From Tubiluchus corallicola (taxonomy: Eukaryota > Animalia > Priapulida): a DNA stretch of 64,000 bases. The notes under the pieces are model-generated. The model searched no databases. It was not told the origin of the DNA and was given only the letters and a program-made list of their open reading frames with translations. The position numbers and the translations under genes are program-made. Positions 29,501-53,640 of this stretch are shown here, piece by piece. How positions within the stretch are numbered: the stretch's first letter is position 1; each line of letters starts with the position of its first letter. The stretch covers positions 124,001 through 188,000 of the forward strand of contig JAQGDQ010000376.1 of the NCBI GenBank assembly GCA_030141605.1. The letters are read 5' to 3'.

Positions 29501-32500
29501 ATGCCATTTGCTGATTTTGTAACAAATATCCCAGATGCAGACTTGCCGGGCAACTTCCATCAACAATTAGCAGAGACAATTGCAGCAATGCTGGGAAAAC
29601 CACCTGACGTATGGTTATGGTTTGTTATGTTGTATTTGGATCATTTATTATGTCGTATTTTTGCATTAGTAAAAATACAAATGTGATAGCTGCTGCAATA
29701 GATTACATTAATAATCTTGGACTACTGTTGCAATACCATTGTGCCTAGAAATTTTTGTACGCAAACAAAGAAACGTCTACGTCTTATGAGAGTTAATAAA
29801 CACCTTATAAAATGTCTAATTTGAGATCTAACAATTACTATTATTTTTGTAATAATATTCTGCGTCGTGTTCAATCGATTTTAATAAACAAGGAAAAACA
29901 AACTTACCAACTTGAAAAAATATTTTTGCACAATCTGTTGTTTTAGTCCCCTTCTTAGAATTCTTTTTTTGGAGTAACCAATTGTTTTAGCATCTCTCCT
30001 CACCGATATTTTTGTCGGTGTTTTCATTACTTTTAGGGTATGGTTTTTATGTAAAAATAATGAAATCTCTGATACAAAAATCAGTATCCAAATTTTTTTA
30101 TCTGGGAAACTAAAATGATAACTTGTCCTTTTTGGAAATCCACATCTCACTTTATTTCTGGAAACGTTTTAAATAAAGTTTGCTATAAAATTAGTTTTTT
30201 TCCTGAGCTCTGGTTTCGCAGTGCACAGTAAAAATGGCTCAGGAAAAAATGGCTCAAATGGAAAAGTACATAAAAATGGCACAAATGGATAAGTAATCAA
30301 AAGTGGCACATGTGTTTTTTGATGCATCTGTTTTCTATAATAAAACTAGAATGCGCTTAGTAGGAAGTAGCTCTGCTAAAACCGAACAATCCTACTCGTA
30401 TTCGTCTGTATCTTTTGATTAAAACATATTAGTGCAAAGATAAACAAGCAGACATACCAAAATGTACATGTGTATTTGTATTATATAGACCGGGGGTGTG
30501 CAAATTGCGGCCCGCGGGCCACTTGCGACCCGTGGAGAGAATTTGTGCGGCCCGTGAAGAGATTTGTCAACCTAATGAAAGTGCGGCCGTAGTAATGATA
30601 TACGCAGGTCGGTTGCAAAAAAAAACACGTTATTAGGCCTTTCTGTACTTGACTCCTTGATCAAACTGCCTGTGGCCCGCACGAATTATTGGAAAGTTTA
30701 ATGTGGCCCGGCTAGTCAGATAATTTGCACACCCCTGATATAGACTAAGAAAAGACTCAAAATACTTGTTCATTAATTGGGTTTATATTCAATAATGCAC
30801 GAATGCTCCACATAGTGTTTATCTACCTTTTTAATTTTTAATCCTTCATAATTTTTCTGAAGGAGACCCTGAAACTTTGTGCTGCTGGCTTCGCACATTT
30901 GACACTTAATTTTGCCCTCTCCCCACTTTTCAGAAGTGATATGTATTTATGACTACTGTCTGCTGACTTTGCAAAGTGCATATTGATTTATCTATAATGC
31001 AGTATCATTTAGCAGTTCTAGCCTCTTAGATATTGTTGTCACAGCAACACAAGGCTTGCTGTGTTAGCACTAAGATAGCTTTTCTTTGTTTTCTGTTTTT
31101 CAATTTTGTTCTTGTCAGCTGGTTTCTTTCTTTAAATTGCCTTGATAACGTTCCCATTGCACCCATGCCTGACTTGTTGCAAAATTTAATGATAATTGGC
31201 ACTAACAATTGACTGTCCTAGTATAAGTTTAAACATTTACCTGAAATTATGAACTTTTAATATTCTAATTCATTTTGCTTTCCACTAAATAGAGAGTGGT
31301 AGTGTCAGTAAGAGGAGGTGCAACGATGTGGAGAGGAGGAGAAAGACCAGCTGTTACAATGAATATCTACTCCTTCAATGTCTTTACTCCTGAAAAGAAT
31401 ATCGGGTATTCAAAAACTTTGCACGAATTTGTCACAACAAAGTTGGGTGTTCCCAGTGACAGGTATGTTATGCTTACATAGCTTAACATTATGGAAGTTG
31501 CACTATGTAAGAATTTTTTGTCACCAATGTTGTACATCATACTGTTTGTATATTGGGGTGTGATGTGTCACTGAAAATATTTTATGATGCAATGTCTCAA
31601 GACGTACAGGGAATGCAATAAAGTAACATGTAGCTAGAATATTTATAGGAGTACTCAGCCACTGTAAGCTTCTTTTTGGGCACTAATGGGCCTCACTGCA
31701 AGCTACCAATGTAATTACTGCATTTTAAGCCTTTTAGGACTTTCAGAAGCCAATTTTGGAACACTTTAATTTTTTTGTTTTCATTTGCCATTAATTTGTC
31801 AATTAACCACAATTTTGGCCTTGGCATATTACCAGTTGTCAGCCAAATGGACTAACAAGTTGTTTTTATTTTTTGTGGACCATTTAAGTGGTGAATATGG
31901 GAAACTTTTTAATTTATAATTATTGACAAAGTTCATACATCAGTTTTTGGTTATCATGGTATAAATTGTGCTGTGCACAGGGCCAGCTGTAGATAGTTTA
32001 AAGTCCTAGGCAGAAGTATTTTTAGCATCCCATCCTCAACGGCAACCTTTCTTCCATTGTTCCCACCACAACACCAAAATTGAATTTTTCTTGTATATTA
32101 TTACAATAAAGTATAACGTTACCTGTGTGTTAGGCTTTACATGTACTATAGTGCACTAACATGTTTTAGTGTAGATAACTAGCAATCTAGTTGAAATTGA
32201 ATTTATGATCCAATTGTATGCAATTTCTGCTACTATTGGCTAAATTTTTCTTCATCAGCCTTTTCACCAGAAAATTTTCAAAATACTAACTCGTCTTTTT
32301 CATGTATACATCCATTTCACTACATAGTCTTGTTGCGAATACTTTATTAGAGATTCATAATTTTTGCTGTTCAATGTTGCCACTTGCCATCTTTTTTACC
32401 TTTCATTTTTGAAAACTTCAAATCTCATAAGTTTATCTGCCTTAATTAGATAAGGGTTATTGTAAGAAACTTTTTTATTAGTGGAAAGATCAGCATTGTA

Positions 32501-33522: not shown

Positions 33523-36500
33523 AAATTGCATTTAAAGGTTGTTAAAAACTTGATATTCCAAGTGTGACTCATTACTAAAGTAGGTAATTTGGACAGGATA
33601 TATATTTTTGGACAGCGTAAGATGCACAGCATATATTGTAGCTCGGGTAGCATAGATAAAAAGTCTGTTATTGCTGAGATTAATTTTTGATAGTCTATAA
33701 ATTATTCTTAATAATGAAGCTATAATATAACTATAATAATTTATAATAATAGTTTTCTCAATCAATCAATGATGTAGCTCAATTGAGAAGTTTGGTTTCT
33801 CATTATTATTATTTAGAGCATTTTATAAATTGTTGTAGTTTTTAATGTAGGTTAATTGTGTGTGTAGCACCATTTATTTAAGTAATTATGTATATAGGCT
33901 CTGCAGGCCCTGTGAACCACTGTCTATCTAGGTTTTAGTTAAATCTGCATAATACACATTAAATTTTTAGCTTTGTAAACCACTAGTGGTCATTGCCAGA
34001 AGGTTAGGAAATGTAGACTGACAGCCCTTGTTTAGAACAAAATGAGAATTTCACATTTCTCAGCCACCAGAAAATATTTCAAGGCCACGTTAATACCGAC
34101 AAAGGTGTGTAATCAGATCCCTACATAAATACAGAAGGAACACTACCTTATCGCATTCTTTGGTCACTAAACCTACGTCATATCTTTGAATATTTTACTG
34201 CATTAGCAAGTGCAGCACTGAGTTTACAGATAAAAAATTATAAGAATAAAATAATCAGAAGACATTTTTTATTTAGCAAATTAGTCGAGTTAGTTGGAGT
34301 TACGTTCCTTTTTTAAATAGGCCTCCAGGACCTAACACAGGCCATTTTTCCATAAAAATGATAAATTTCAAGCCAGGTAACACACATTAAAAATATTTAG
34401 CATTAGCTGACTTTCTCATTTTTGCCTATATGAAATCGTGGAGAAAGTCTATACTATGGCAATAGCGGCCCTGGGGTGAGAGCACACCTCACTGGGTTGT
34501 AGTTACCATTATACTCAGAAGTAAGTGAAGTACAAAAAGCTAAATGACTTATAAAGACGATTAAAAAGATAATCATTTAAACACAGAAGATATATACTAG
34601 CTGCTGCATGGTAATAAGATATAACTAAATACCATATTTTTACACCCCATTTCTGGTGACCAAGGGTTCATTAGGATTTGATCATAAGTTCTATGCTTAG
34701 ATGCTACATGCAGTCTGGTCAAGTTTCTAATTCAAGTTGCTGCTGTTAATTATTATTGCAGATCTGGATCCACAAGAGACTGGTTTATACTTCTCTAGGT
34801 AGATGTTAAAATTTACTAAAGATACTAAACTAACCAAGTGGCAAGTGGCATTATCATTTTAAGTTCAACCTCCTCCACCTTATGGTGCCCTATGTATTTA
34901 GGCTATTGCCAAAATTGCATATTGTATTCTGTTCAGCTAGCACAGTTTGTGAGAAAAAATTTGATATTTTGGAATCTTATATATAGAAGTTTTTATTCGA
35001 ATAATGCTACAATGTACTATACGTTGTTATGTAGTTAGAGAAAATTATTTTCTAGTTGATTTATAAGAGAACGGCATGTTTTTTGCTTGTCTTTTGCTGA
35101 CAGAATTTGCTCAGCTGCTTGTTGCTGCAGGTCGTTAGTTAATAATCGATCATTGAAACTCTGCAATTAAAATTCCATTAAACTTTTTATTTTTACAATT
35201 TGTTGTTAATTACTTTTACCAGTGATAAAAATTTTGATAGTGCAGCATACTCGCTAGTTGTTTTTTGGAAATGCTTTTGAATTCATTGCGTGTTACAATT
35301 GTGCCTTGATGTAACTTAGTTATTGCTCGTGGTAGTTATTGCTCAAACTATGAATCATTTGTATGAACCAATAGCTTTTCTTTGTCTAATTTTTTGCTAT
35401 TTTTGACTGCATTGTTGATCAGCTTTGATACATATAATTTTCATAACAATCACCACAATGTCACTCCATTGAAAAAATTTAATTTTAAACACTAGAACTT
35501 AAAACAATCATCTTATAATTATAGTGCTTTTAATGATAGTACAATTCCACATCTTTAACAATATTTAGCACATGGGCAACTAACAAGAACTTTCTGAGTT
35601 AGAATGTCAGTTTTTTATTCTCTCTGTCTCTCGCACACACAGTCACACGCACAGGCACGGATGCACACGTGCACAATTTTGTAAAGTGTAAAGTGTTTCA
35701 TGAAAGTCTGTGACCTTCAATGTACTTGTTTTGCATTTGATTCACCAACCAAAAATTTGCAAAAAATATAATTTGCTTCAGAATACTCAAAGTAAATTTT
35801 GCTACACACTCATTCGTTGTAACAAGTTATCTGTAGTATTAATGTTCTGGTCGCACAGTTAATCTTGGTTAGTCTTAGGTAATAATTATCACAACACAAT
35901 GTACACGTTAAGAATGCCTAACAGTATCTCAAAAACAGATCATAGACAAAAAATCATGAGGCAAGTTCAAGTGCTCATACTATTGACTTGAGATTCACTT
36001 ATAATAACATCAATCATGTACTCCAAAAATTTTGACTGCAGCAATCTTAACTACCTGCGAAATAGCATCGATTTGTACCAGGAATATCAAACGCAACAGA
36101 CTCTTTGTTGCACTTTCATTCTCATGCAGCTGCAGTCTGAATAAATTTCATTAAAATGTTATCAAAGATGGCCCTTTGCTCAGCAACTTTCTAAAACTGA
36201 CCTGGATAAAGCAATTATTATAACTCTTTACCTCAATATTTTTTGACAACAAATTCATGATTTTTAACACTCATTGCTTAAATACACTATAATGATAATG
36301 TAACGATAACAGGTTAATGTCGAGTATTATAGGATTTCTAAATCTATACCCTATACTTGACTATAGATACTTCTGACATTATACTTAATACTTATTTTTA
36401 TATGCCAATTACTGAGTATTGTATACATTCTTGCTATAAGCTGACATTAAAACACAAAATAACTCATCTAAATTTATGCTACCTAAGGCCTAGCTACATC

Positions 36501-37053: not shown

Positions 37054-39546
37054 TTAAATGTGCGTAATCTCCACAAAGTCACTCTGTTCGTCAGCTGTTT
37101 CTTTTTTCTCAACACCATTAGCTTGTTCAGTTTTGCTAAACAGTTGCCAGGAATAATTAATTAGCAGTTCTATAGCACGGGTTTGGTACTGTGTTTCCTG
37201 TAAATAATGCAGGGGTTCACGTTCACAACTACGCAGCAGCGTTGGACCAAAAATTATGCCTAGGTTTTCTGCAGACATTTGATTTAAACCTCTATTGTTG
37301 TGAACCTTGTTCAGATGTAGAATCAATGCAGCTGTTGTTTTGTAGTTAGCTCCAGGCAGTTGGCCAGTGATTTTTTCAAGCTGCTGTAAGGTTTCTTCAT
37401 GTCTTGAGGTCTCCTCCTTGCCGTCATGAGGAAGCACTTGGCAAGGATAGTCCTTGGCTAGCTGTATGAAATCATCGTACAGCTTGTAAGTAAGCAGAGG
37501 TTCTGGAAGCTGGCGGAGATATAACTTGAGCACATTTGCTACGACAATTGGACTTACTGCTTCAATGTCAACGTCTGCGCTACCACTTTCAAACTCTTGA
37601 CACAAGTGTTCAACTTTGGATTTTACACCTGACAGTCTATATATGCCCTTCATGGCGAGACCTCTAGCATCAATATCAGCAATGCACTTCTCTACAATCG
37701 GGGGCACTTCTGTATGTGTTTGCTGCACATGAGCGCCAACATCAACACCGAATGTTGTCATCCGGCGATACAGACCTTTGTTGCCGCACTGTATGGCCAG
37801 TGTTTCCAAGCAATTCTTATGACAAGACAACCCACATTTTGTGCATTCATAACCTTGAAAAAATACGTAACTGTCACATTCTCTACACTTTGATGCTCTC
37901 TCTAATTTCTTGAAGGTGTGAGTGGCAGCAGCTCGAGACACAACAGTTAGACTCCGACCTTCGCCAGATTCTGCTTTTGGTAAGGGCTTGCTACTCCAAG
38001 GACTAGGAACTGGTGATCCATTACCAATGCTACTGTCACTCATGCTGTCTGTGTCACTCCAGTTTTTTCCATCTTTTTCACCAGGCATGTAACGTAAGTA
38101 CATAGGGAGTTGCTCCATTAGGTCACGCGAGTCATCTGATATTTTTGTGCGTGAATAAACACGACTGATTTCACTGTATGGTTCAAAAACAAACTTTTCC
38201 GGTTCCCTATTAGGCAAATTCACTGGCAGCTGTTTGACAAATTCCATATATTGGGATCCAGGCTCATATAATCGGGAACTCTCCCATAAAATTTGTAATT
38301 GAATGGGCACAGGTGTCGCCAGAGTGTTAAGCAGTTGAAAATAAGAAACGGTTACAGCTTTCATTGTTTGGTCACACTGGCAGATTAGCTCTCTTATATC
38401 TGACAGGATGTTTAATTTAATCTCATTCAGACCAGCATGTCGAAGATTTGCTTCAGCAACGCAAGCTTTGTACGTAGTTTCTGCTTCAGCAGCTTTATAG
38501 AGCATATCTTCTTCAACTTTCTTTTTCTTTTCGATCTTACTGCTGCTTTGTTCATCAGCTTTTTGCACTGCATCCCTTGCCTTTTCATACTCCTGCTGGC
38601 GTTGAATATATGCAGAACGAGCTTTTCTGAGATCGGTTGCCGCTTCTTGAAGTTTCTTCACCTCTTTCATCCAGGTGTCACGCAAGGTTTTACGAACTCT
38701 CTCGTGTTCGACAATTCGTGCTGCTAGCGGCTCTACAAACTTTTGTGTTCCTAGTAAATTATAACTAGCTTGACTCATACCAGCATGTTCAAAGTCTTGA
38801 TCCAAAGCCGTGCAGTAAATCGATTGAAAAGGCAGAAAGCTCTCTTCTTTGATCAATGGCTTTATCGTCTGTGACAGAGCTGACAATTTCTTGGCATGTT
38901 CTGTATCTATTTGTACACGCTTTTCAACAAATGTGATAATGTTTCGTGCATAACGAGTCCACACCTTTGCACGGTGAAGTGCTATCTCTACTCCATTGTC
39001 ACAAGCATGTAAACTGGCATCAACTTGCTCGCTGTTGAGAGAAGTACGTGTCACATCACTCTCTATGAGATTTTCATCAGAGGTAAATTTATTTGTCATC
39101 ATGTCTATGTCGCCAAGTAAGTATCCAGATAGTCGGCTGCTGAATGACAGTGCCAATTCATCAATACCTTGTAAGACTGCTGCTGCATCACTAGAACCAT
39201 TAACATAGGAATAAGCTTTGATAGCAGTGATAAGTTTGCCTGCAGAAGTCAGTATTCCTACAGACTGTATGGCATCATACTTCTGAAGGACATTCTTCAG
39301 TATAGACAACACTGCAGCTAAACCCTCATGAGCTTTGACTTTCATGAGGTCTGCCTCTCCTTTCTGCTGAAAAGTTGTTTTCAGTGCAGACAGTGCTTCT
39401 GAAAAACGCCGAACGCAATCGCTCAGCTGCTGAATGTCCTCTTGATCCACCATAGCAGCATCCGACGAATCTGTTCCTAAGCTAGAGATAGAACCAAACA
39501 TATTTGGAGTTTTGTTAGTATTAAACGTAGCTGTTGAGGAGTTCAT
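37054..39546 (-). CDS. Rho GTPase-activating protein of the ARHGAP29/ARHGAP45(HMHA1)/GMIP family, 830 aa, single coding exon
   Basis: N-terminal helical domain (DIQQLSDCVRRFSEAL), F-BAR region (GVEIALHRAKVWTRYARNIITFVEKR), C1 zinc finger (HTFKKLERASKCRECDSYVFFQGYECTKCGLSCHKNC), RhoGAP domain with arginine finger (GIYRLSG) and NQMSAENLGIIFGPTL. In-frame TAA three codons upstream of the ATG. Confidence 0.95.
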   Translation of the reverse strand: MNSSTATFNTNKTPNMFGSISSLGTDSSDAAMVDQEDIQQLSDCVRRFSEALSALKTTFQQKGEADLMKVKAHEGLAAVLSILKNVLQKYDAIQSVGILTSAGKLITAIKAYSYVNGSSDAAAVLQGIDELALSFSSRLSGYLLGDIDMMTNKFTSDENLIESDVTRTSLNSEQVDASLHACDNGVEIALHRAKVWTRYARNIITFVEKRVQIDTEHAKKLSALSQTIKPLIKEESFLPFQSIYCTALDQDFEHAGMSQASYNLLGTQKFVEPLAARIVEHERVRKTLRDTWMKEVKKLQEAATDLRKARSAYIQRQQEYEKARDAVQKADEQSSSKIEKKKKVEEDMLYKAAEAETTYKACVAEANLRHAGLNEIKLNILSDIRELICQCDQTMKAVTVSYFQLLNTLATPVPIQLQILWESSRLYEPGSQYMEFVKQLPVNLPNREPEKFVFEPYSEISRVYSRTKISDDSRDLMEQLPMYLRYMPGEKDGKNWSDTDSMSDSSIGNGSPVPSPWSSKPLPKAESGEGRSLTVVSRAAATHTFKKLERASKCRECDSYVFFQGYECTKCGLSCHKNCLETLAIQCGNKGLYRRMTTFGVDVGAHVQQTHTEVPPIVEKCIADIDARGLAMKGIYRLSGVKSKVEHLCQEFESGSADVDIEAVSPIVVANVLKLYLRQLPEPLLTYKLYDDFIQLAKDYPCQVLPHDGKEETSRHEETLQQLEKITGQLPGANYKTTAALILHLNKVHNNRGLNQMSAENLGIIFGPTLLRSCEREPLHYLQETQYQTRAIELLINYSWQLFSKTEQANGVEKKETADEQSDFVEITHI

Positions 39547-39590
39547 GACATCTTACTCCAGTCTTACTGCTATATATCAGATGCGAACAC

Positions 39591-42500
39591 TTACTTATGC
39601 TTCAACTGAAAATAATGAAAAAATTAAACAAATTAATAACATGATTGAAACAGCTAGAATCAGTACATATTATTTAGCAGTTTGTTTAACTTGCAAGTGC
39701 TCAGACTGGCTGAGGGGAAGCATTACTATAATGAAGACAAAACGTTAAATAATTTGAACAATCTTATTGAACAAAATACATTTAAGCCAGAAATTTTGCA
39801 AGTGAATCTATAAAAAACTTTTCAAATCCCTTCCGAGTCATTAGAATAGGTGATTGTATTTCACATCTGCCCTGCTCAGACTGAATGTTAAAGTTGATAA
39901 ATTATTACCAGCTGTCAATTTGTCATCTGAAAAACTAAACATCTGAATATTACGTCAGTGCATTTCTTTGATTCAAATTGCAAATATAAAGAAAACGTAG
40001 GTTTTTAACTTGGGACCTTTCATTAATGGTAATCACTTTTGTTATAACTACTAATTACTATAATTTGTAAATATCCACTTGCATTAGCAATTTGACATAA
40101 ATCTGTTTTTAATATAATAATTACTATATTTTGTAAATACAGTGATTATTATATTAAAAAGAGATTTTTGTCAAATTGCTAATGCAAGTGGATTTTAATC
40201 TACATTGATGGCTGGCCGCAAGTACAAAATGTTTATCTAAAAATGTACAGGTACAAATGTTCATAATAAAGAATGTCTGAATGTCTTGAAGAAAAAATTA
40301 CCAATATGTATGCAGTTAGTAGTCATACTCAACTGCCTGGATTTTCTTTGTATTTGGGCTAGGAAACAGCAGACAAACTGCACTTGTGGTTAACACACTT
40401 GCTTGAGTTATCTAAAACTTGCATTGTTTGCCTTTGCAATGTTGTATTATTAAGCTTAATTCATGATGCAACAGTTAAATTTATACATGTAATTAACAAT
40501 ATTTAGGAACAAAAGATACATAACTAATCATTAAGCCGCGTATACCTATATGCTTCAAGTGATAAAAGCATAAAACCTATCTCTTCATATAATTTACTTA
40601 GGTGCTTGTCATATGTTTTATTCTTAAATATAAATTAGCTGTCTCACGAATCAACAACTTTTTGTACTGTTTGTTATTTACTACCTATGTGTTACACAAG
40701 CATGTTTAAATACCCGATAACACATTGTTTTTACAAAACAATTCATAGCTATACTAAACAATATCTGTTTTGAAGCAGCAAACCATCAGGCATGGCAAAG
40801 TGATGGTTATAGCAATGCTAATGTATAACGTAAAATGGCCTTTCGATTATGTACATTAGCGGATGGTGATAAGCGTGAATGACATTACTGCCTATAGACA
40901 GTTAAAGGAAAACACGTTGATTTCTCTTATCCTAATCCACTTTGAAGTACGGTAAAAAGTGTGCATTTTAATACCTACAATAATGCCAAAGCATTTCTGG
41001 TTGTTAAATAAAAGTTAAAAATTTAAATAACAGTAGGTGAGCCCAATTAATGGTGACACCACAAGTGAACATAATTTTCAATAGTGCAAACATTCTATGA
41101 ATGTTTTGTACATGTTTGTGAAAGCAAAATTTAAAGTACGGCGCTACTGTACAACGTTTAATGTGACAAACAAAAACTCTGCAAGTGTTAAGTTTGAAAT
41201 TTCAAGTTTACTGCTGTTCTCACTCATGAGCTCTCGAACATGTGTACTATGTCACAAATGAACAACTCTGAACTGAGAGGTACAGCACCTGATTTTAGTG
41301 CAATGCATTTCCAAAATGCAGGTATTAGTGTCCATCTAGCTAGCGATTGCAAAATACATATAACAGCAAAGAACTAGCTCCAGAAACATGAAATTACATT
41401 TATGTGGTAATCATTCTTACACACAAGTCCTTCTTGAAAAAATAATACATTCCCTTTCAAATATCTTATATCTTTTGGGCTATAGTTTAAGACTGGGTGC
41501 AGTTTTCCTTTTAACAATTAACACATTACAGAAATCAAGACAGAGCAAAAACTGGTGTATGATGAGGTTTGTACTGCAAAGGTTCAAGGTTTAATAAGTT
41601 ACTCTAAGTTTTAGGTTTTATCCAAGGATAACACCTAATCTAATCTAATACTTATTTCCAAGGCAGTCCCATTTATTATTATGCGTATTGATAAATTTAC
41701 GTGCTTGGTAAAAAAAAACAGCAGTACCGTTTTCTAAGTTTTTGGTATGGCTCGGCCGGGAACTAAAACTGCAACCTGCTGACCTGTCTGGTGGGAAGTG
41801 AGTGCGCCATTACTGTCAGAACTATACCCCCGTGTATCACTTTAATATGTGTGTAAGGAAGTACTAATCTTTAATTTCTGTATACATACCTACTTACATT
41901 TATAATCACGTAATGTTAATATTTATCATGAGTGTAGTACTCACAGTGCGGTTTAAGCATTGCTTCAGTGCTTCCATTTCTGTTGCACAGCAGCCACGAG
42001 TCAAATCATCATTTGCAGAAATGCACTTTCCGTAAGCAGTTGCCTAAAATAAAAGGAAGTTTGGAATGACAACTCTACAGTAGGCACCGTTTATTAGATT
42101 CACGGTTCATAGAATCAGTCGCCTAACTGACTCAAAAATGTCTGGTATATGGGTCACTTCTATTCAAATGTATATAAAAACTGCCAATAACAGACTGAAA
42201 TAACTTCGCATAATTGGACTCAATATTTTGCTTCATGTGCTTCAATGAGACACTCTTGTGTGACCAATTAGCTTTTACTACTTTTATATCATGTTCATTC
42301 ACTTTCCTGCTCTAATAGAAACAATCGTGTTAAGTACTGTTTTGTTTATAAGCAGGAACGTTTATCATATGCTAATATACTAGCCTAGCGGTTTGCATTG
42401 ACCCACCCATCCACTGCAATTAACCTCGTTACCCAAGGACTTCTGGAAGCTAAATATTTAATCACTTGCCTAGCGGTTTGCTTTTGAAGCTTTCCCTGTC

Positions 42501-45500
42501 TTTCATAGAATGTTTAATCAGTTAGCTGTTGCAGTTATGCCAGGGATACAGGTACAATACAACAAGGTGTTGCAAAGTTGCCGGTAGATTAACATGTAAA
42601 CTTGAATACTTGGACGACTACTGTGTTGTTTAATGAACGGTTAGTGAAACGGGATGCGCGCTTAAAATTGCTTTATCGGCCTTTCGTAATGGGCTGAATT
42701 TACACTAAAATTTGAAAGTAGCCAGGTCTTCAGAGAGCGCAGTACTACGCACGTTACCAGCGTCACTAACAAGGCGTGGCTGGCGGGCCAGTCGAATCAC
42801 TTCTTTACGCAAGAGTGGTTACACTACTATCAAAACTACATGGAATGAGAGGCACTATCTTATAGGCCTTGTGCACACTGTACATTGTACAATATGTATC
42901 AAATGTCATCAAGTTAAAGCAGTAAAATAAAATAATACTTTTACATTGCCAAGCACAACAGACTTTGATAAACTCTGTATTTTAAATACACGAAAATGTG
43001 AACTTATATTAAAATTTATGAAAGTTAACAATAAAAAGACGTTTAACAATAATGAACGATCACTCTGTATACAAGAAAACTCTATTAAGAGCCGATTGCG
43101 GGGCTTTTTATGCATTTAGTTCCTTAGTGTATGAAGTTAATACGCGCTAGCATTTATTCTAGAAACCATAAGAGTTGTAAAATTTATGTGCAGTTACATT
43201 AAGCAAAATGTATTACGGCTGCCTAAACGTCACACTCTATTTCAGTTCAGTATTCATAATCTGTGCCTAGTTTTTAGCCAAAGGGTTTATTACGGAAGTG
43301 TTAGTCATCAGAATTGAAGCTGCTGCTTCACCACAAACTCGTGCGGAATGTGCTGTATTTGAACTTAATTATACTCTCTTTGAGATTCTCTTGCTTTCTA
43401 TCTGTTTTGGTTATCTCTCTGTGTATGTACTCTTATGAATTGAAGTTAAACAAAAAGCAAAAAAAGCTACCGAAATACATTTGCTACATTATTAATTTGT
43501 TTATTAACGTTTAATAAAATAATAAATCAAAAATGTCAGAAAACTGCTGTTTCAAGCACCTGTCATTGTTTCAGCCTCTATGACAACTAAACTAGGTCAT
43601 ACAGGTTACAAACTCGGGTGTGTGAAGCAAGCCTGACACACGATTTAGAATAAACAAGCGGGTCATAACAGTGCCTCTATTTTGTCTCTCTCTCCCTTCT
43701 TTTCTCTATCTCTCTCTCTCTATGTGTCCCTTTTCTCTCTTTATCTCTCTCCTTTCTTACCGTAATTGTACACTGAGCTGTAATCTTTTAATGTAAATGC
43801 TTTGTAAAAACAGAAATAAACGGACCACAGGGAAAGTGCAACTGCCCAGCATGCCGATTATAGTAAACATTAGTTTGCCTGAAGCTATAACTACTGCCAA
43901 AACATATGTATAACACTCCATGTAATTCATTATTTTCATCGAGATTTTTTCAACATACTGACCCATAAGAGCTAACTCTAACACATCAATTATAAATCCA
44001 AACTTTAATAAAACAAACAATTTAAGTATAACATTTAAATTTTTCACGATTTTCTATAATTATATTGCCAACACTATATATGCACTTTGCCCAAATTACC
44101 ATAAACAATGTAAGAACAGTTGAGTTGTCAAGTTCCTAGCCAAGCCTAGTTATTTAATGGGTGGGTGCCTGGTGAACGATCTCTAGGAAAAGCCTCTTAA
44201 GAAATATGTTCTAGCACAAGTGGTTAAGCGATCTCTGTCAGTTCAGTCTTTAATGAACTATTATGATTATAGCATTGGTAATAAGCTAACTAGAGGCCTG
44301 CCACAACTACCACAAATTTTTAAATTTTTTTAGGCCCCAAAATTGTGAGTGCCGAACTTTTATCATCATCATCAATTTTTCTCAGAACAGTGACATTCAT
44401 AAAAACTGATTACAAAAATAAGGTATAATCTGCAGACATAGACTTATACTTAGTCGAATGAATGTGCAGTCAGTACCAAGGCAAGCATTTCTGGACTTTC
44501 TTGCATTTTTTTGGTATATACTAGGCTATATCCATTGCAACGTACTGTCTATTCACCTGACATGTTTAGATCTGGTCAAAGTTCCATGATGTCACAGCTT
44601 CTACAATTTTTCCTACAGAAGTATGAAATGCTTTGCTGTTCATTCCATCTTTGTTTATAATCCTTTCCAACTTACAAAGTCAGTACTCGACTTCACCACA
44701 GCACAAGTACTCCTCATAATCCTCATTTCACCAAATTGGTCATGTTTCAAAGTCAGCCAGTTTTTTATCAATCAGACATTGCACATATATTATACTTTTT
44801 AATGCAGGTATAAGAATATTTAAAAAACTGCCTTATAATTGTGGTTGCTAGTAACGCAATGTAACACAGCAGCCAAATTAATCAAACATTTGTTTTAACA
44901 CACATATGGAAATGTCCTGAAGCCTGAAGGTCAACTGTAATAATCTGAAAATAAACCAAAAATTACAAATATCTTTAACATACAGTATTTTGTATTTTGT
45001 CATAAGCCAATTATTTTTCCTGAAATGGCAATATTCTGGCACTTAAGCGTTCTAGTCCCGGTTGGCCAACAGTTTTTCAGCGCTCGCTTCAATAAATTAG
45101 CGGACACAACTAATCAACAACAGTTAATTTATTCTGCTATAATTACAGCAATAATTTGGTACGAGTAAAATTTGTCTCATTACAAAATAACTGCAACAAC
45201 AACAGCAGCAAAATAACAAATGTAACAAGGACAACAATGGTGACTATGCTGAAGATGATAACAATGATGAGGAAAAGAGAAACAGCATGCAAGACATAAA
45301 CATACAGCAAAAATAACAACAATCGCAAAGGTGTTATTTTGTGCTGAAGACAGCTGGTGGTTTTGATTGCCAGTCTAAAATGACTGAACTATAAGGCGAG
45401 CGAGAAGTGTGGCATTTGTTCACTGCTTCATGGTGTACATATTGTTACTTTGCAATAGTTTATACTGTAGACAGTACAATATTCTGTACATAAATTATAA

Positions 45501-48500
45501 TTATTGTTCTACTTGGCCCGCAGTTGTTCACAGACATGCAAGTTCTTCAAGGGGCTCAAGAAATTTCTGCGATATTTATAGTGCAAAGTAATCTTTGAAC
45601 AACATTACAATTTGTGCAGTGTTGCAAAGTAAGCAAAAGCAAAGTAATTGATGACAAAATTAGCTAGAATTCAAGTACGCAAGTTGCAAAAAATGAAGAC
45701 GAAATATTATGCATGATTTTACTGATATAATATGTCACTAATTTAGTGCACAGACATGCAGTCAACAGGTGAACCTGCTTGCATTGATTCATTTAAATAA
45801 AAACTAAAATTATTTAGCTGCTTTAATAAGAACTCCTTACTTCAGACCATTATTACTTTTCTCAAATTTTCAAGCTCCAAAAATATACTCAATAGCGATA
45901 TACCCAAACAAAGTTAATAATTTACTCGAAATTTCCACGATCATATTTTACGGACAAAAAAGCCCTAATATTACTGCTCCGGGCAACCAAGGAAGATAAG
46001 TGAAGCCCATATGTGAGTCAGTGTACAAGACATTTCGGCAAATCCTTATTTTTGCTGTAGTACGAATTCTAAGAAACCATGCCATTATAGTTATGCAAAC
46101 CCAGCGAGTCAGTGCAAAAGACGTTTTGGAAAATTCTTACATACTTTTTCTATACTACAAGTTCTAACAAATTATGCCATTATAGTACGTGTAGGCGTTA
46201 ACTTGTCTTGTAGGCTGTATACCAGTACAACTTCTTAGTTTTTTCTAAAACTAATTAAGGCATGTGAACAAAAAACTAAAATTTTAATATAGTTGAAGTC
46301 TTTACCTTGTTAAGCTTGACAGAATGAGTCCATGGAGTGTTCGGTTAATAAGGCTCCCACTACTTGTGTTGTAAATTGCACCACCAGCATTGGTCACTTT
46401 GATATAACACTTTAAGTGACAAATTATTATGCAGCAATTTAAAGCATCAGATCTTTAAAATTATAACTAAATATTGCACACAAGCACCAAAAAATTTACG
46501 ATACTTATCAGTGTCAATGTCAGCAGTCTGCATACACGTGCAAGCAGCCTTCTGTTTACAGTAGAATATATCAAGTTGTGGTGCATTATTTAATTGGTTG
46601 CAATTCAAAACGGCGAGCGTAACTGCATATTATGGTGGTGCATAATAAGATAGTAAATTCCAGCAGTAAAACAGACATTCTCTGCCAGGGCCCTATAGGC
46701 CATGCCAGCGGGTACCTCTACTGTGGCCATATCTGTTGACTGAAAACGACACTAATCCACGATAATCTTACTTTAAAGTGAAACGTTTTACGGGTATGCA
46801 ATACCCACAAAGTCAACGCATCACAAAAGCACATTAAAGTTGTGTTTTACCAGTTCATTAGTTAGACTCAGTTTCTCAGTTAAGAGCAAATAACCTGGCT
46901 AAAAAAACGAGACTTCTGAATGCACTGCACTTATTGGTTATGTCCTAGAGTAATGTTACTAAACACATGATTCGGAACAGCATCACTCATGTGAATAAAA
47001 CGGGTGAAATTCTTACATTGCAAGAGAGAGGCCTAACTGCACAACCTGACAAATAACGAGTTTGAAAAGTGAACTGAAATTCGGCTACAGGTCACCTCCC
47101 AATTAACCTATGATAAAATCGTCACGATAGCAAGCGGGCTTAGACGAAACTATAGATGAAGACACTTACGGGGAAACACGGACACCACCAATAGTTCAAG
47201 CACGCCAATCACTAAGTATTTTGTGAGAATTCGTCCATTATACAATAACAGATTTTCAACAATTTTATCATTGTTAGAACTTTGTGATTGAACTTCTTCA
47301 CAAAAAATGAAGCAGCTGACCTTGGAGTCTTTTTGTAATTTTTGTAAATAAACAGGCCAGTGTGAAGTTTAGAAAAGTAAATTTTTTATTTTTTTAATAA
47401 CTCACTTTATAAACTAACATTTTTGAATACCGGCATCGGAATTCAGGCATTACTTTGTTTCTAAAATTCATCAAAAGTCTTTGCAGTGCATCGTAAGTTG
47501 ATGATTCATACTTCAACGTTAGTAACACTACACCTGTCGGTTAACTGGGTCAAAACACTTCTGTCCAAATTGAATTTATTAAGCGGCGCCTGCTGTACAT
47601 ACGTGTGAAGCACAAGTACCCGTTTTTTGTATGCTGTCAAAATCTGTAGGTCCTCATAAATTCACAACTGATAACAAATGCTCACTCACTGGCATGTGGT
47701 GCAAAAAAATGCAACTAATGTATGCCAAAGTTTAGACAACAATTGGAAGCAACCATCCCATAAAATTGAAGTTTCTTAGCACGATACGGTAACGTATTTA
47801 CTTTTGGCTGCGAAAATTACAAGTTTAAAATTTTAGTAGTTTTTTTAGTTATGGCTGAAAAAGTTGTGCGTGCTAACAATTTAAATGCGGGAACAATGTC
47901 AGCTTATCATCAATAATTAAAAAGTAGCCATGTCCGTATACATAAAGCACTCAATAGAAGGCAGCAAAACAACAAAGAAATCAAAGAGCTTACATTGCTA
48001 ACTAATTTTCAAAAACTATTGATAAAAATTTTTTCTTTTTATTAGTGAATTTGCAACAGAAAATGCCACTTATTATGTGGACCTCCAATTTTGCATGCCG
48101 ATGGTAAATGGACGGAATTTACGGAAATGGGCAACTATAGTGGTAAAAAATGGAATTAGCCCAATTTGCCAACTTTTATGCAAATTTAATGTACACTAGA
48201 GATGGAATTTACTTCATAAGTTACTAAGGAGTTTCTTCTGTATTTCTCGGCCTTTTTAGAAGTCCTCCTTCGAGTTTTATTTTTTATGCAACTTAGGCAC
48301 CCATTACATCGTTTCACTCTGTTTTTGCATTTGCCATGAGTAGCGAGAAATGTATACAGGAAGCTTATAACGAACAGTAATACATTTGTGGAGAGGTTTC
48401 CTCTGTTCACACAAATGGCACGTGGCCATGTCTTCAAATGTTTTTGCATTTAAAATCAATTTTTTAAGCTCTATTGCTTTTTGGTCTCATTTGAAGTTTA

Positions 48501-50284
48501 GTTAGTGCAACATTTAAAATGGATGACAGAAGATGATGTGCGGTGAAAAAAGCAAATGATGTGCACCAGTTGTGCATGTGACAGCTGGGGAAACAGCCAG
48601 AAAGCGTGTAACGATGCATCGTAATATCTTTTGTAACGTCACGTGTCTTGTCAAAATGCACCAATATAGCGATGATTGAACATTCAGTGCATTGAGCGCA
48701 GCATTAGCAGACTCGACCTTAACACAGGCAGACCTGCTGTTAGCAGCCAATGAGAAGAGGTTGAAAGTGCAATGTGTTCATGACAATGTATAGTAGGCTA
48801 ATTACGTTTTTGCTTATAAGTTTTTGAAATGGCTTGCAGCAAATGTGGACTAGAAAATGCACCATATTTTAAAAGACAGGATGATTTTTCATATACTACC
48901 CCATTTTCAAGTCCAATGAAAAGTATGCATTTTAACACAATTAATACTGCAATAGTATTTCTGATAACTAAATAATAGATTAAAAACTTGCGAAAGCGAA
49001 AAGTGAAGTACAGTGCTAGTGCAATACATTCAGTGTGTCGTACTAAAACTGGGTAAGCTTTAAGATAAAAATTCAAATTTCAAATTTATCGCTATGCTCA
49101 CATAAGAGCTGTCAAACGTGTGTGATTCGTCACTGTTTTTTATGCAATGCGTTTCCGAAGTGCAGGTGCTAATGACCGTGTAACTAGCGAATGGCGAAAT
49201 GCATGTGACAGTGAAGAACTAGTAGTGGGAACACGAAATTGGGTTTGTGTGGTAATAATTCAGTTTTGAAAAATACTGTGTTTGCTTTCAGTATTTTAAA
49301 CAGTGGATTTTTGATCTTCAGTTTAAGATTGGGTCTGGTTTTGCATTAAATGAAAAGTATTGAAATGTTTTGCATTTCTGGTGGCTTACCATGCAAATAA
49401 TACAAAAGTATGAACAGAAATCAAATAGTTTGCTGAATTATTTTAGCACTTATCAATCTTAAAATTGTTTGATAAATTTAACAGATAAATAAAATATGTT
49501 AATCTAGTTTTTTTTATAAAAAGCCTGCAAACATTAACTCGTGTATCGTTATACGTGTCATATCAGGAGGTTAGTATTGTGGGTATGTAACGTGACTTAG
49601 ACCAGGCAATCTCCCGATGATCTGTACGAAGATGACAGTATATTGTTCTGTAAATTCTATGTACAAATTAAATGTTGGTTTTCATACGTTATGTTAAACT
49701 ACACACAAATGCCGAATACATACTTTATTCATGTATAAAAATTTAAGTTTGTATTAACGATCTATCACACATTACATAATTTATGACTAATTTAAAGAGC
49801 CATTCGCTTCTAATTTCTGTGAAGCGTAATTGAAACAGAAATGACAATTCTTTGACATGTATGGAATTTCGTCAATTTTAAAACGAAATATCGAAGGTCC
49901 TAATTATGCGTTCGGGGCGCGGCATTGCTTATTCTTTCATGTAGTGGCGCACCAAAGAATGGCGCACATGACTAAATGATATTGTACGTGACAGGCTCAT
50001 CACTAAAACGGAGATCATAGAAATGCGAGATCGCTTAGCGTGTCAAAAGGCTTGCCTTTCGAAACTAGTATATCCATGGCAGTCCGTGAAATAAACAGAC
50101 TCTATTAAAAATAAACAATATTATTTTACTTTCGAATTCCTACGAGTACATTAGTATGCTAACGTAATGGTCTAACTAGCGTTACCTCAATTCTGCACTT
50201 TGTAAATGCAAATGGAATACGCGAAAACCTCTTAAATCTAGTGAAACCAACAGACGTTGCACTACTGTAAGATACAGGCTTCAT
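39591..50284 (-). CDS. NDUFAF8: NDUFAF8-like (C17orf89) mitochondrial complex I assembly factor, twin CX9C protein, 70 aa
   Basis: Exon 1 50284-50186 (ATG...ATT GAG|gtaac), exon 2 42043-41945 (ttttag|GCA...ACT|gtgagt), proposed exon 3 39605-39591 (ttttcag|TTG AAG CAT AAG TAA). Protein: MKPVSYSSATSVGFTRFKRFSRIPFAFTKCRIEATAYGKCISANDDLTRGCCATEMEALKQCLNRTLKHK. Two exact CX9C motifs, the first formed only by the exon 1-2 junction. Resembles human NDUFAF8 as recalled (RAFPERLAACGAEAAAYGRC...CAREFEALRSC). Exons 1-2 are well supported, exon 3 less so. Confidence 0.85.
40073..40193. repeat. 121-bp inverted repeat / hairpin in NDUFAF8 intron 2
   Basis: atccacttgcattagcaatttgaca pairs perfectly with tgtcaaattgctaatgcaagtggat (25 bp), and pairing continues inward with few mismatches to a very short loop. 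Confidence 0.9.
41735..41816 (-). mobile_element. tRNA-derived SINE head remnant
   Basis: Plus-strand ttttggtatggctcggccgggaactaaaactgcaacc...gagtgcgccattactg resembles the reverse complement of a SINE A/B-box head. Confidence 0.35.
43684..43756. repeat. Degenerate (CT)n polypyrimidine microsatellite
   Basis: tctctctctcccttcttttctctatctctctctctc...ttttctctctttatctctct read directly. Confidence 0.8.
46012..46185. repeat. Diverged tandem dimer, unit about 93 bp
   Basis: gagtcagtgtacaagacatttcggcaaatcctta...ttctaagaaaccatgccattatagt recurs as gagtcagtgcaaaagacgttttggaaaattctta...ttctaacaaattatgccattatagt. Confidence 0.7.
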
Positions 50285-52283
50285 CACAAAAAACAAGCAG
50301 TAACTTAAAGCAACTTTGTTTCTTGAGAATCAGTATAGGATTTCCCAAAAAAGTTAGACTATTTTATTACATATGGTGCAACTGCAGTAGAGCGCCACGT
50401 ACCACCTAAGCCCGTAACATCCTCCAACTCCCAAATGTCATAATGATACCGCAAATGTGCTAAATTTGCGGAGAACCGGTGTGGCAACTTAAATGTAATT
50501 TTGCTAATCGAAAATTGGATGTATTTAGTATTATTTATGATGACACAATAAAGCATAGAACCAAATTTGTTTAAGGAAAAAACTAACTTTATAATGATGA
50601 CGGATAGCCCTTGACAATTACATACAATAATATTTATAAGTAAAATGTTTACACGGGCTCCATTAACTTCAACATAAAATTACACCAAGTATCTATAAAG
50701 AGGACATAATCACATAATTATTATTACATAAATAATTACAATTTTTTAAAGGAAACGCATGTCGACCATGCAAGCCTTTATTAAACACAACCAAATCATG
50801 AGAATGGAATATACTTGGAAACACGCAGCTCGATCACAAGGCTGTAAACGTCAGCAAGCATGCTTTCAATACTTAGAAAAGGCAAAGACCCTCCAAGATT
50901 AATTTTAATGATCCAGTATTGTTTATAATACAATTTTTTGGAGAGGAGGGGAACAACTTAGCACCAATAGCCATATATTGTAAAAGTTTGAGGAGTAAAT
51001 GACTCACTAGCCTGTATACTGTACTAAGAGGGTAAATGGCTCACCACCAGGCCAGCCCATGTACCACAATTATGCTGTAAAATTGTAAATGTATCACCAG
51101 CCAATACACCAAACATAGGAGAAAAATAATGTTGTACAAATAGGTAATGAAATTGACCACGTACTACGTATGCAGCCAGCAAAATAAAGATGAAATATTT
51201 TTGCGAAACGTTGGGTTTGCCTAAAAAGTCAGTCTGTTGCATTTCAGAAAGATTAACTCTTGAAATCATCTCATCTGTGTGGCTCAGAATTAATATTATT
51301 TTTTAAAGAATACACAATTTATCTTTTTAAAATATAATTAAAAATGCAAATATACAATTAATTTTTTAAAATATATTGACATTTTAAATTATTTACTAAA
51401 CGAACAAGGAGAATGGAAGCTGGTATTAAAAAATAAGTACTGCACCCTGTAACTTTTGATTCCTGGGCTACTGTGGTATATGGCGCCCAACAACTGCAAG
51501 GTTTTACAAGCCTTGATTCGAGTTATTTTATTTATAAGTATCAGTAACCGACCATGAAACACGCACCCCAAATATGCGCTTACACCTTCAAGCCCCCGCA
51601 AACCCACAAATGAAGCCCAAAACGCTAAGGGTGGCATCGAACGTACGAATTCGATTCCTTATTATTAAAACGTTTGAAACATCATGCAGTTAGCACAATT
51701 TAGCAAAAAATTCTGCACACAGTTTTTGAACAAATTATATTGTAGTGGTTTTGCCGCAGAACAAAATTAAGTAAAAAGCATAATAATTGCAAGATTTGAG
51801 GCTACAGCTTTGATAAGGGACCTATTCTCGGCGAGCCGCATAACAATTGAAAGGTCTTGATCGAATTGAATCAGGCCCATCGAGAGGAACGGCTTGAAAA
51901 ACCTCCAAAAATGGCATTTTCACCCGTTTTTTGCAAAACTTATACTTCTTATTTCTAGAGAATGGGAATGTTGTAATAGTGGAAATCTTTTGTTGAATCA
52001 TGCACACTAAGGTGATTACCCAAGGTCGTTCGTGCAACCACACCATCTCCCCTCTCCAAAAACGTGTTATGGGATAATAGGATTAATGCATATCATCAAT
52101 ATAAACTAGGTAACTAACAAAATCTGTTCAAAATACTACTATAACAATAATTTCGTTAATCATATTGTAGAACTTAACATTGCTGCATTTGTACTAAATT
52201 AATGTTAATTCAGACTGATTGATAACAAACACTTTCAAAAATTTTCAAAGAATATTCACAAGTCCAATTTGAGTGCAAAAAGT

Positions 52284-53640
52284 TTATAACACATAGTCTT
52301 CACTAAAACGCACCTGTTGATTTACTTTCTGCCGTGGTCTAACAGAGTGACCTTGTGGACCGGCAGAAGGACCTGCCCTACTAGCATCATGGCTAGAAAT
52401 CTCTTGTTCAGGTGGTGAAACCACGAGATGCCAACGATTATGACAAATGTCTGAACCTGTAATAGTTTTCTGCCGATCCAATGTGTTGTTCGTCGCTGTT
52501 ATTCTTCATTTTTGTGTTTGATCAGCACTCTATTCTCTTCATCAAAAGTCTCTTTTCTGTTTCTAGCTCGCTGCTGTCGATTGTAAGATACTTGCTGTTT
52601 CTGTTTATGTCTATACAGCTGCTCACAAGCCTTCAGTTTTGGCAGATCAGAAAGCTAGGGCTAATTGTAAGGGCACAATTGGCAGGGTTCTACACAACTG
52701 ACCTCCCATTAATAGCTGAGCAGGAGACTAACCATTCTGCATCTCGAGGAGCAAGCAAGTCCAAGTACGGATGAGTGACATTTCTTTTTCAAGATATCTT
52801 TGAGTGACTGAACACAGCGCTCAGCTTGGCCTTTGCTTTATGCATATTCAGTTCTGCCAGTCGCACATGTAAAGCTTCATTCAGTTGCAAACGCGTAGAA
52901 TTGGTGTGAAACGGTCCATTATCACTTCTAACAATTTCAGGAATACCGTGTCTTGCGAATATGGATTTTAGATCATTAATGACAGCAGAGGCACTTATTA
53001 ATGATAACAATGACATTTCAAAGAATCGATTGCAGTAGTCCACATGCACAAGCTGCGATTTTTTCATAAATTTACAAACATCTGTGCCGAGCACTTGCCA
53101 AGGTCGTTTAGGAAACTGTGTAGGCATAAGTAGCTCTGCTTGATCGCCTCGCTGTTTCACATTTCTTTTACACATTGGTTTATATTTCTTTCTATGTCAG
53201 ATGCCGTATTAGGCCACCATTTAGTGATGCCTAGGTGACCAAAATGAATTTTTTGCAGCATTTTATATTATTATGAATTTTTTGCAGCATTGCCTCATAT
53301 TGGCCAGAATGACCACACAGTCACCTTCTGTAAAAAACCCATCAATTACAGACATCGAAGTTGCTTCTTTATGGAATTTATTAAGATCGGATGGACGTTT
53401 TTCTCTAGGCCAAGTGATTTTAACGTACTCCGTAACTGGGATACTCCATAATATACTCCATAACATAAGACTGGATCATGTTCTTGCTTTGATTTAGTTT
53501 CCTGTAATAAACTTTACGAAGATATTCGTGTTTTTTCCAAGTTTATCCTGCAGATCCACGTCGAGTGCTTTAACTGATGATGTTTTAGACAAAGCATCAG
53601 GTGCAATTAGTTGTATGCCTGGCACATGTGAGTTTGTTTA
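52284..53640 (-). mobile_element. Decayed Ty3/Gypsy LTR retrotransposon pol remnant (RNase H end and integrase)
   Basis: HVPGIQLIAPDALS, integrase zinc-binding HFGHLGITK, core PKRPWQVLGTDVC..VHVDYCNRF..LKSIFARHGIPEIVRSDNGP, C-terminal NRWHL and SVRPR..RFSEDYVL*. Frameshifted; no LTR pair found. Confidence 0.9.

What the first reader, a model, noticed from the sequence alone, without database searches (positions are those of the whole stretch)
37054..50284. Predicted bicistronic NDUFAF8-RhoGAP mRNA: a mitochondrial twin-CX9C microprotein as the upstream ORF of an intronless F-BAR/C1/RhoGAP
Seen: NDUFAF8-like exon 2 ends in a strong phase-0 donor (ACT|gtgagt, 41945). The strongest downstream acceptor I found (ttaattttttcattattttcag, exon from 39605) supplies LKHK-stop and completes a normal-length 70-aa protein. 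The 830-aa RhoGAP ATG (39546) follows 44 nt after that stop in the same exon and in another frame, with an in-frame TAA just before it and no AATAAA in the spacer, so a fusion protein is excluded for this exon. Known: animal bicistronic mRNAs pairing a small upstream protein with an unrelated ORF exist (PYURF-PIGY, MIEF1 uORF, ASDURF-ASNSD1). I know of no NDUFAF8-ARHGAP29/45 pairing but cannot search for one. Inference: one transcript encodes both proteins, with RhoGAP made by leaky scanning or reinitiation.
Basis: partly seen in the sequence, partly recalled or inferred. Interest (0 to 1): 0.88.

Follow-up and report, generated by a model that had tools for sequence, protein, structure and literature searches.

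The report
Predicted NDUFAF8–RhoGAP shared mRNA, unconfirmed
In a likely priapulan worm, an intact intronless Rho-regulator gene lies just downstream of two coding exons of a small twin-CX9C, likely mitochondrial, protein, and splice signals predict that one mRNA encodes both, a known kind of arrangement that no transcript here confirms.

Summary
The anatomy is as described: two 99-nt exons of a twin-CX9C microprotein (NDUFAF8-like), an acceptor at 39605 that adds four codons and a stop, a 44-nt spacer, and an intact intronless 830-aa ARHGAP29/45-type RhoGAP. New support: the exon-2 donor sits where the human NDUFAF8 intron does (last Cys+4, phase 0), so a third exon is expected. 39605 ranks 1 of 470 acceptors by a crude score. 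Intron 2 has gene-body, not promoter, CpG content. The two rival acceptors are weak. The RhoGAP groups with a Priapulus protein in the ortholog position. No transcript evidence for the junction was obtainable. Five extra ATGs argue against plain leaky scanning, and neighbouring genes also have long exons, so retroposition is unproven. Best reading (0.55): one promoter, one mRNA, weak downstream translation; the main rival is a separate RhoGAP-only isoform. The design is known (STREMI-SLC35A4, PYURF-PIGY, 159 fly dicistronic pairs); this pairing was not found in print. Verdict: plausible new member of a known kind, unconfirmed.

The parts
49501..50700 (-). CpG-rich, promoter-like region around exon 1 (inferred single promoter of the unit)
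   Evidence: CpG o/e 1.42 and 1.28 in 600-nt windows starting at 49501 and 49801 (1.42 is the highest in the window); 1.11 over 49900-50700; window median 0.525
50186..50284 (-). Microprotein coding exon 1 (ATG; basic N-terminus; first Cys); GT donor, phase 0
   Evidence: net charge +5 in first 25 aa; its last 24 residues align to the N-half of homolog P0159 at 29%
41945..42043 (-). Microprotein coding exon 2 (rest of twin CX9C); donor ACT|gtgagt four codons after the last Cys
   Evidence: Pfam CX9C E 0.0012, below cut-off; 48% identical to P0159; intron position equals human c.195
39606..39635 (-). T-rich acceptor (…ttttcag) of the predicted terminal exon
   Evidence: rank 1 of 470 YAG sites at 36-52 kb
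39591..39605 (-). Predicted exon-3 coding part: LKHK + TAA
   Evidence: predicted only
39547..39590 (-). 44-nt intercistronic spacer; no polyA hexamer; in-frame TAA at 39555-39553; possible second acceptor AG ending 39567
   Evidence: the X1 contig ends at 39566
39543..39551 (-). Met-Ser-stop mini-ORF (-3 A) whose stop overlaps the RhoGAP ATG
37054..39546 (-). Intronless ARHGAP29/45-type RhoGAP, 830 aa: RHG29_45_N 38-143, GMIP-like F-BAR 184-439, C1 545-589, RhoGAP 615-773; second in-frame ATG (Met16, 39501, -3 A)
35614..35619 (-). First AATAAA downstream of the RhoGAP stop (candidate 3' end, about 1.4 kb UTR)
   Evidence: not tested
40856..40891 (-). Rival exon 3 (11 codons; AATAAA at 40622); its T-tract overlaps the end of a repeat copy at 40909-41416
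   Evidence: high X2 depth on the matching copy near 48.9-49.3 kb

Best explanation
A promoter near 50.3 kb likely drives one transcript in which exons 1 and 2 of the NDUFAF8-like gene are predicted to splice to a terminal exon starting at 39605, so that one mRNA would carry the 70-aa twin-CX9C microprotein first and the intact 830-aa RhoGAP 44 nt later. Shown: the two exons, the donor, the acceptor, the closed frames, the intact RhoGAP ORF and its orthology. Inferred: the splice, co-transcription, and translation of both ORFs from the same molecule. The microprotein would be the main product and would act in complex I assembly like NDUFAF8 (by homology). The RhoGAP would be made at a low, uORF-repressed rate, most likely by reinitiation and possibly from Met16 (39501) after the Met-Ser-stop mini-ORF, not by plain leaky scanning. 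The RhoGAP coding sequence probably came to lie in the microprotein gene's last exon by retroposition or by translocation plus intron loss; this window cannot tell which.
For: (1) Human NDUFAF8 has Cys 25/35/51/61 (PMC10174193), three exons, and an intron after c.195 = codon 65 = last Cys+4, phase 0 (PMC7042492). The window donor lies after codon 66 = Cys62+4, phase 0, so a third exon is expected. (2) 39605 is the best of 470 acceptors at 36-52 kb and lies 59 nt upstream of the RhoGAP ATG with all frames closed. (3) CpG o/e of intron 2 is 0.47, like the PIKfyve (0.46) and NWD (0.51) gene bodies, against 1.11 at exon 1: no promoter signature directly upstream of the RhoGAP. (4) Rival acceptor 40891 overlaps a repeat end; rival 30101 lies inside an intron of an opposite-strand MIF gene and its match is reached by 436 of 2000 permuted tails. 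(5) The RhoGAP is intact and constrained: of 36 codons with listed differences in the related run X1, 21 are synonymous, and 24 of 39 changes are at third positions (only the listed subset of differences). P0001 shares the short N-terminus and the short tail. (6) Precedent: 50% of human bicistronic downstream ORFs are intronless (PMC13303939); exclusively polycistronic fly loci have spacers of -34 to 319 nt (PMC4528330).
Against: No transcript shows junction 41945>39605 or both ORFs together. Five ATGs lie between the two starts with no depletion, three of them with a purine at -3, plus the -3 A mini-ORF start counted among the five making four, and the uORF is 70 codons while reinitiation-permissive uORFs in mammals are usually under 30 (PMC5972666); efficient RhoGAP synthesis from this mRNA is therefore hard to explain. 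The one homolog tail available (P0159, 8 aa) does not favour LKHK (BLOSUM -3, against 3 for 40891 and 9 for 30101). AATAAA at 41677 and 40622 would allow microprotein-only 3' ends. Of 159 fly dicistronic loci only 45 make both proteins exclusively from dicistronic transcripts. Neighbouring PIKfyve and NWD genes also have uninterrupted frames of 1.8-2 kb, so 'intronless' does not prove retroposition. The acceptor score is crude and my own.
Confidence: 0.55

Rival explanations
1. Two adjacent genes with mostly separate mRNAs: the microprotein ends by read-through of exon 2 or at 40891 with an intronic polyA site, and the RhoGAP is translated from an isoform whose non-coding first exon (own promoter, or a shared promoter with alternative splicing) joins 39605.
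For: PolyA hexamers at 41677 and 40622; 40891 ranks 3 of 470 acceptors; donor-like sites exist in both introns; a CpG-rich patch at 42601-43200 (o/e 1.11); it avoids the five upstream ATGs; most fly dicistronic loci also have monocistronic isoforms.
Against: Intron 2 lacks a promoter-like CpG signal; the 42.6 kb patch overlaps a high-depth repeat bin; the 40891 tract overlaps a repeat end; the conserved donor argues against read-through as the main form.
Confidence: 0.3
2. Operon-like unit: one pre-mRNA resolved by spliced-leader trans-splicing at 39605, giving separate mature mRNAs.
For: A strong acceptor 59 nt before an ATG with closed frames is what a trans-splice site looks like; SL trans-splicing occurs in nematodes and copepods (search listing).
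Against: No report of SL trans-splicing in priapulans appeared in the 20 of 850 papers listed or in passages of PMC2566580; the microprotein would still need a third exon; Rfam found nothing at gathering threshold in 30-58 kb.
Confidence: 0.07
3. CMC4/MTCP1-like nesting: the RhoGAP sits inside intron 2 and the true last exon lies beyond it (candidate acceptor 30101, six codons).
For: 30101 gave the best match to the P0159 tail among 39 strong acceptors; a twin-CX9C gene hosting an unrelated inserted gene has precedent (PMC8566464, passage).
Against: 436 of 2000 permuted tails score as well, and a plus-strand control site scored higher (12 against 9); the site is inside intron 1 of an opposite-strand MIF gene.
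Confidence: 0.05
4. Fusion protein: an 11-nt exon (39605-39595) splices from the donor-like site at 39594 to 39481, putting the microprotein in frame with the RhoGAP.
For: GTAAGT at 39594 and an in-frame AG ending 39482 exist.
Against: The X1 contig runs unspliced across 39383-39566 (X1 is only guessed to be RNA); the FGS motif upstream of 39481 is conserved in P0001; a mitochondrial import signal fused to a cytosolic RhoGAP makes little functional sense (inference).
Confidence: 0.03

Closest known systems
STREMI-SLC35A4 and the 'gene symbiosis' class (PMC13303939; abstract, sections 7, 11, 13, supplement search)
   Same: Mitochondrial microprotein upstream, unrelated intronless ORF downstream, both older than their pairing; downstream ORF repressed by the uORF.
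   Different: There shown by long reads, ribosome profiling and reporters in vertebrates; here only predicted, in a likely priapulan, with different partners. NDUFAF8 occurred in that paper's 11 searchable supplements only in expression tables.
PYURF-PIGY, MIURF-MIEF1, ASDURF-ASNSD1 (named in PMC13303939 section 7)
   Same: Small conserved upstream protein and an unrelated second ORF on one mRNA; in PYURF-PIGY the upstream ORF is spliced and the second ORF lies intronless shortly after its stop (supplement row).
   Different: Different genes; experimentally established.
Drosophila dicistronic loci (PMC4528330; passages)
   Same: Short spacer within -34 to 319 nt; small proteins over-represented.
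   Different: 159 pairs annotated from cDNA and RNA-seq; only 45 exclusively dicistronic. The paper's supplementary file 1 could not be searched, so a fly pair involving the NDUFAF8 ortholog is not excluded.
CMC4/MTCP1 locus (PMC8566464; passage)
   Same: A small Cx9C gene lends its promoter to an unrelated inserted gene.
   Different: There the inserted gene lies in intron 1 and two distinct transcripts share a 5' UTR; here the predicted layout is one terminal exon.
NDUFAF8 (PMC7042492, PMC10174193; passages)
   Same: About 70 aa, twin CX9C, basic N-terminus, three exons, last intron at Cys+4 phase 0.
   Different: Inner Cys spacing 12 here and in P0159, against 16 in human; no tool returned the name NDUFAF8 for this protein.
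ARHGAP29/ARHGAP45 family
   Same: RHG29_45_N, GMIP-like F-BAR, C1, RhoGAP in that order; 141 relatives, about 35-58% identical among the 120 listed.
   Different: No intron in the coding sequence; lacks the C-terminal tail of 70-590 aa seen in most of the 38 compared rows.

Membership tests
Bicistronic mRNA, gene-symbiosis type | Both ORFs on the same mature RNA (long reads) | not testable with these tools
   No RNA holder listed; only contigs of two runs, no joint across 41945>39605 among the rows shown
Bicistronic mRNA, gene-symbiosis type | Ribosome footprints or peptides for both ORFs | not testable with these tools
   No such data on hand
Bicistronic mRNA, gene-symbiosis type | Both ORFs are near full-length homologs of known proteins, non-overlapping and not fused | tested here: met
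   holds for the predicted splice form
Bicistronic mRNA, gene-symbiosis type | Purifying selection on both ORFs | tested here: inconclusive
   RhoGAP: 21 of 36 listed changed codons synonymous against X1. Microprotein: no close relative found
Bicistronic mRNA, gene-symbiosis type | Intronless downstream ORF | tested here: met
   One 830-aa ORF with all domains
Bicistronic mRNA, gene-symbiosis type | Origin by retroposition | tested here: inconclusive
   Ortholog position in the tree; neighbours also have long exons; no genome to look for a parent copy
Leaky-scanning bicistron (green-algal type) | Few AUGs upstream of ORF 2 | tested here: not met
   5 ATGs in 254 nt against 5.2 +/- 2.1 in 5000 shuffles; criterion from PMC11892635
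NDUFAF8 | Twin CX9C in a protein of about 70 aa with a basic N-terminus | tested here: met
   Cys 30-40 and 52-62, net +5 in first 25 aa; human features
NDUFAF8 | Last intron four codons after the last Cys, phase 0 | tested here: met
NDUFAF8 | Orthology by a named database match | tested here: inconclusive
   Pfam, PDB and Atlas return only CX9C/CHCH-level matches; the name rests on gene structure, size and recalled sequence likeness
NDUFAF8 | Binds and stabilises NDUFAF5 | not tested
   No NDUFAF5 sequence from this organism on hand
ARHGAP29/45 | RHG29_45_N + F-BAR + C1 + RhoGAP, and tree placement | tested here: met
   Arg637 in the arginine-finger motif (motif recalled)
SL trans-spliced operon | Spliced leader on the downstream mRNA | not testable with these tools
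   No 5' ends available; literature listing gave no priapulan case

The most novel reading that the evidence does not exclude
An independent, non-vertebrate case of gene symbiosis: the sole ARHGAP29/45 ortholog of priapulans lost its introns and tail, moved into the last exon of NDUFAF8, has no promoter of its own, and is translated only by reinitiation behind a complex I assembly factor, so that Rho signalling is coupled to mitochondrial or integrated-stress status; the shared short form in P0001 and the Priapulus protein would make the arrangement phylum-wide and ancient.
Probability: 0.15. Interest if true: 0.65.

Novelty: new member of a known kind. Interest (0 to 1): 0.4.

Why it matters
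[quoted passage not shown] It would also be a test case for how a large signalling protein is translated behind a 70-codon uORF with five further ATGs. In practice, annotation pipelines would miss the 70-aa gene by treating it as RhoGAP 5' UTR. It is not a new mechanism.

Tried and rejected
No whole genome is held, so no search for a parent RhoGAP copy. Run search: no RNA holder listed; two runs only. X1 (RNA by guess, about 92-95% like the RhoGAP exon) gave no cover of exon 1 or 2 at 85% or of exon 2 at 80%; it also leaves holes inside the RhoGAP, so this blank is no evidence either way. Its 5'-most contig ends at 39566, right after an AG: perhaps a second acceptor, perhaps a chance break. 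Two metagenome scans for RhoGAP loci found no relative (80 and 361 pattern matches, 0 confirmed). Microprotein homolog searches: none, one real hit of 4 (P0159; the other three are repeat proteins), only P0159 itself; so the plan to see whether a microprotein shares P0001's 4835-nt contig failed. Cluster look-ups gave no names for the Logan proteins. MAFFT misplaced exon 1 in three-row alignments; the misaligned A5 was used. The maximum-likelihood tree did not finish; FastTree was used on 39 rows, a hand-picked 38 of the 120 listed homologs, with P0069 cut where it stops aligning. tblastn of 155 stored proteins found no further RhoGAP exon in the window (34 hits outside the ORF, none with E below 0.09). 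Rfam: nothing at 30-58 kb. Earlier findings: nothing in 3 look-ups. Literature: NDUFAF8 + bicistronic gave 1 paper, whose passages concern other genes; one search listed 25 of 747 papers, one holding NDUFAF8 and both ARHGAP names (listing only, a mouse expression study); one search listed 12 of 317, none on this locus. Rejected: plain leaky scanning, exon 30101, the fusion, and 39926 as acceptor (rank 55 of 470).
Full report
Observation. Exon 1 (50284-50186) and exon 2 (42043-41945) are 99 nt each with canonical splice sites. Splicing exon 2 to 39605 adds LKHK and a stop, giving 70 aa with Cys at 30, 40, 51, 52 and 62 and net charge +5 in the first 25 residues. The RhoGAP ORF (39546-37054, 830 aa) starts 44 nt after that stop, has no intron, and carries RHG29_45_N, GMIP-like F-BAR, C1 and RhoGAP domains above Pfam cut-off. 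All three frames from 39605 close before the RhoGAP ATG. A DNA run has an identical 436-nt contig across acceptor, spacer and ATG; it may be the assembly's own source.

The RhoGAP. The search found 141 relatives. The closest are an unnamed Logan protein P0001 (58%, 856 aa) and a partial protein named for Priapulus caudatus (P0069). In a FastTree tree of 39 rows these three form a clade with support 100, sister to the arthropod rows. That is where the ortholog of a priapulan-like animal belongs. The window protein and P0001 both start shortly before a shared FGS motif and lack the long tail of most relatives. Against the related run X1, 21 of 36 codons with listed differences are synonymous and 24 of 39 changes are at third positions (only the differences that searches listed). 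The gene looks functional. Whether it is a retrocopy is open: PIKfyve and the NWD-type gene in this window have uninterrupted frames of about 2.0 and 1.8 kb, and no genome is held to look for a parent.

The microprotein. No tool returned the name NDUFAF8. Pfam, PDB and the Atlas give CX9C/CHCH-level matches only. One real homolog was found, P0159 (67 aa, 48% identical over exon 2, same Cys spacing). The best test was gene structure. Human NDUFAF8 has Cys 25, 35, 51, 61 (PMC10174193, passages), three exons over 225 nt, and an intron after c.195 (PMC7042492, passages), that is four codons after the last Cys in phase 0. The window donor is four codons after Cys62 in phase 0. This supports the name and means a short third exon should exist.

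Which third exon. By a crude T-tract score 39605 ranks 1 of 470 YAG sites at 36-52 kb; 40891 ranks 3 and 39926 ranks 55. The 40891 tract overlaps the end of a repeat (40909-41416, matching 48873-49261), although it has an AATAAA 269 nt downstream. A site at 30101 matched the P0159 tail best of 39 strong acceptors, but 436 of 2000 permuted tails did as well, and it lies in intron 1 of an opposite-strand MIF gene. Against my reading, the P0159 tail does not favour LKHK (score -3). Read-through of exon 2 would give 78 aa with an AATAAA at 41677.

Does the RhoGAP have its own promoter? CpG o/e is 0.47 in intron 2, like the PIKfyve and NWD gene bodies (0.46, 0.51), and 1.11 around exon 1. Reading this as methylated body against unmethylated promoter is an inference from general invertebrate biology. 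A CpG-rich patch at 42.6-43.2 kb overlaps a repeat bin but could still hold an alternative start.

Transcript evidence. None was obtainable. No run is on record as RNA. X1 contigs cover most of the RhoGAP exon and run unspliced from 39383 to 39566; no X1 joint was listed, and one search showed 15 of 109 joints, all from X2. A contig break at 39566 falls just after an AG, which may mark a second acceptor; splicing exon 2 there would give an immediate stop and leave the mRNA bicistronic.

Mechanism. If the predicted mRNA exists, five ATGs lie in the 254 nt between the two starts, as many as shuffles give (5.2); four of the five have a purine at -3. Green-algal leaky-scanning bicistrons show AUG depletion, and added AUGs cut ORF 2 output (PMC11892635, passages). 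Reinitiation is usually efficient only after uORFs under about 30 codons in mammals (PMC5972666, passages). So RhoGAP output from this mRNA should be low, as SLC35A4 is behind its 103-aa uORF (PMC13303939, sections 7 and 11). A Met-Ser-stop mini-ORF overlaps the first RhoGAP ATG, and Met16 (-3 A) lies just before the conserved FGS motif; 2 of 3 listed X1 changes before Met16 are non-synonymous, against 0 of 5 in codons 16-42. Met16 is thus a plausible start, on thin numbers. All of this is inference. The same difficulty is the best argument for the rival, a RhoGAP-only isoform.

Comparison. The layout matches the gene-symbiosis class of PMC13303939 (abstract, sections 7, 11, 13 read): 14 human bicistronic transcripts, 50% of downstream ORFs intronless. 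Drosophila has 159 dicistronic pairs, 45 exclusively so, with spacers of -34 to 319 nt (PMC4528330, passages); its supplementary file 1 could not be searched and may bear on the novelty of an NDUFAF8 uORF. CMC4/MTCP1 shows a Cx9C gene sharing its promoter through separate transcripts (PMC8566464, passage). I found no NDUFAF8-RhoGAP pairing; the library is limited to open papers and long result lists were seen only in part.

Verdict. Observation confirmed; interpretation partly supported. Bicistronic mRNA 0.55, separate isoforms 0.30, trans-splicing 0.07, nesting 0.05, fusion 0.03. New member of a known kind, unconfirmed; interest 0.4.

Noticed in passing
window 29504-29613 and 31293-31463, + strand: MIF-family gene (Pfam MIF on both exons), converging on the RhoGAP 3' end; third exon not found; CpG-rich patch at 27.3-28.2 kb may be its promoter.
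   Followed up: partly
window 58066-64000, - strand: 3' part of a PIKfyve-like gene (Pfam PIP5K on the last exon; name from recalled likeness) with an open frame of at least 1.96 kb and the whole kinase domain in one exon of about 750 nt.
   Followed up: partly
window 7401-22734, + strand: NWD1/2-like WD40 gene with a 602-aa uninterrupted frame at 16533-18341.
   Followed up: partly
window 40070-40196: 127-nt hairpin, 62-nt arms 92% complementary; likely a small transposon remnant.
   Followed up: no
window 40909-41416 and 48873-49261: Two diverged copies (69-74%) of a high-copy repeat; X2 summed depth above 9000 at 48.6-49.2 kb.
   Followed up: partly
window 52789-53196, - strand: Integrase core fragment (Pfam rve, E 0.00045, below cut-off), probably a decayed retrotransposon piece between PIKfyve and the microprotein gene.
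   Followed up: no
window 39594 and 41897/41889, - strand: Extra donor-like sites: GTAAGT 11 nt into the predicted exon 3, and two sites 47-55 nt past the exon-2 donor; the latter could splice a read-through form to 39605.
   Followed up: partly
protein P0069: The Priapulus protein stops aligning inside the C1 domain and lacks the RhoGAP domain: an annotation gap or an intron there, which bears on whether the gene is intronless across priapulans.
   Followed up: no
window 39088-39093, - strand: An AATAAA inside the RhoGAP coding sequence could end a microprotein-only transcript about 500 nt after its stop.
   Followed up: no
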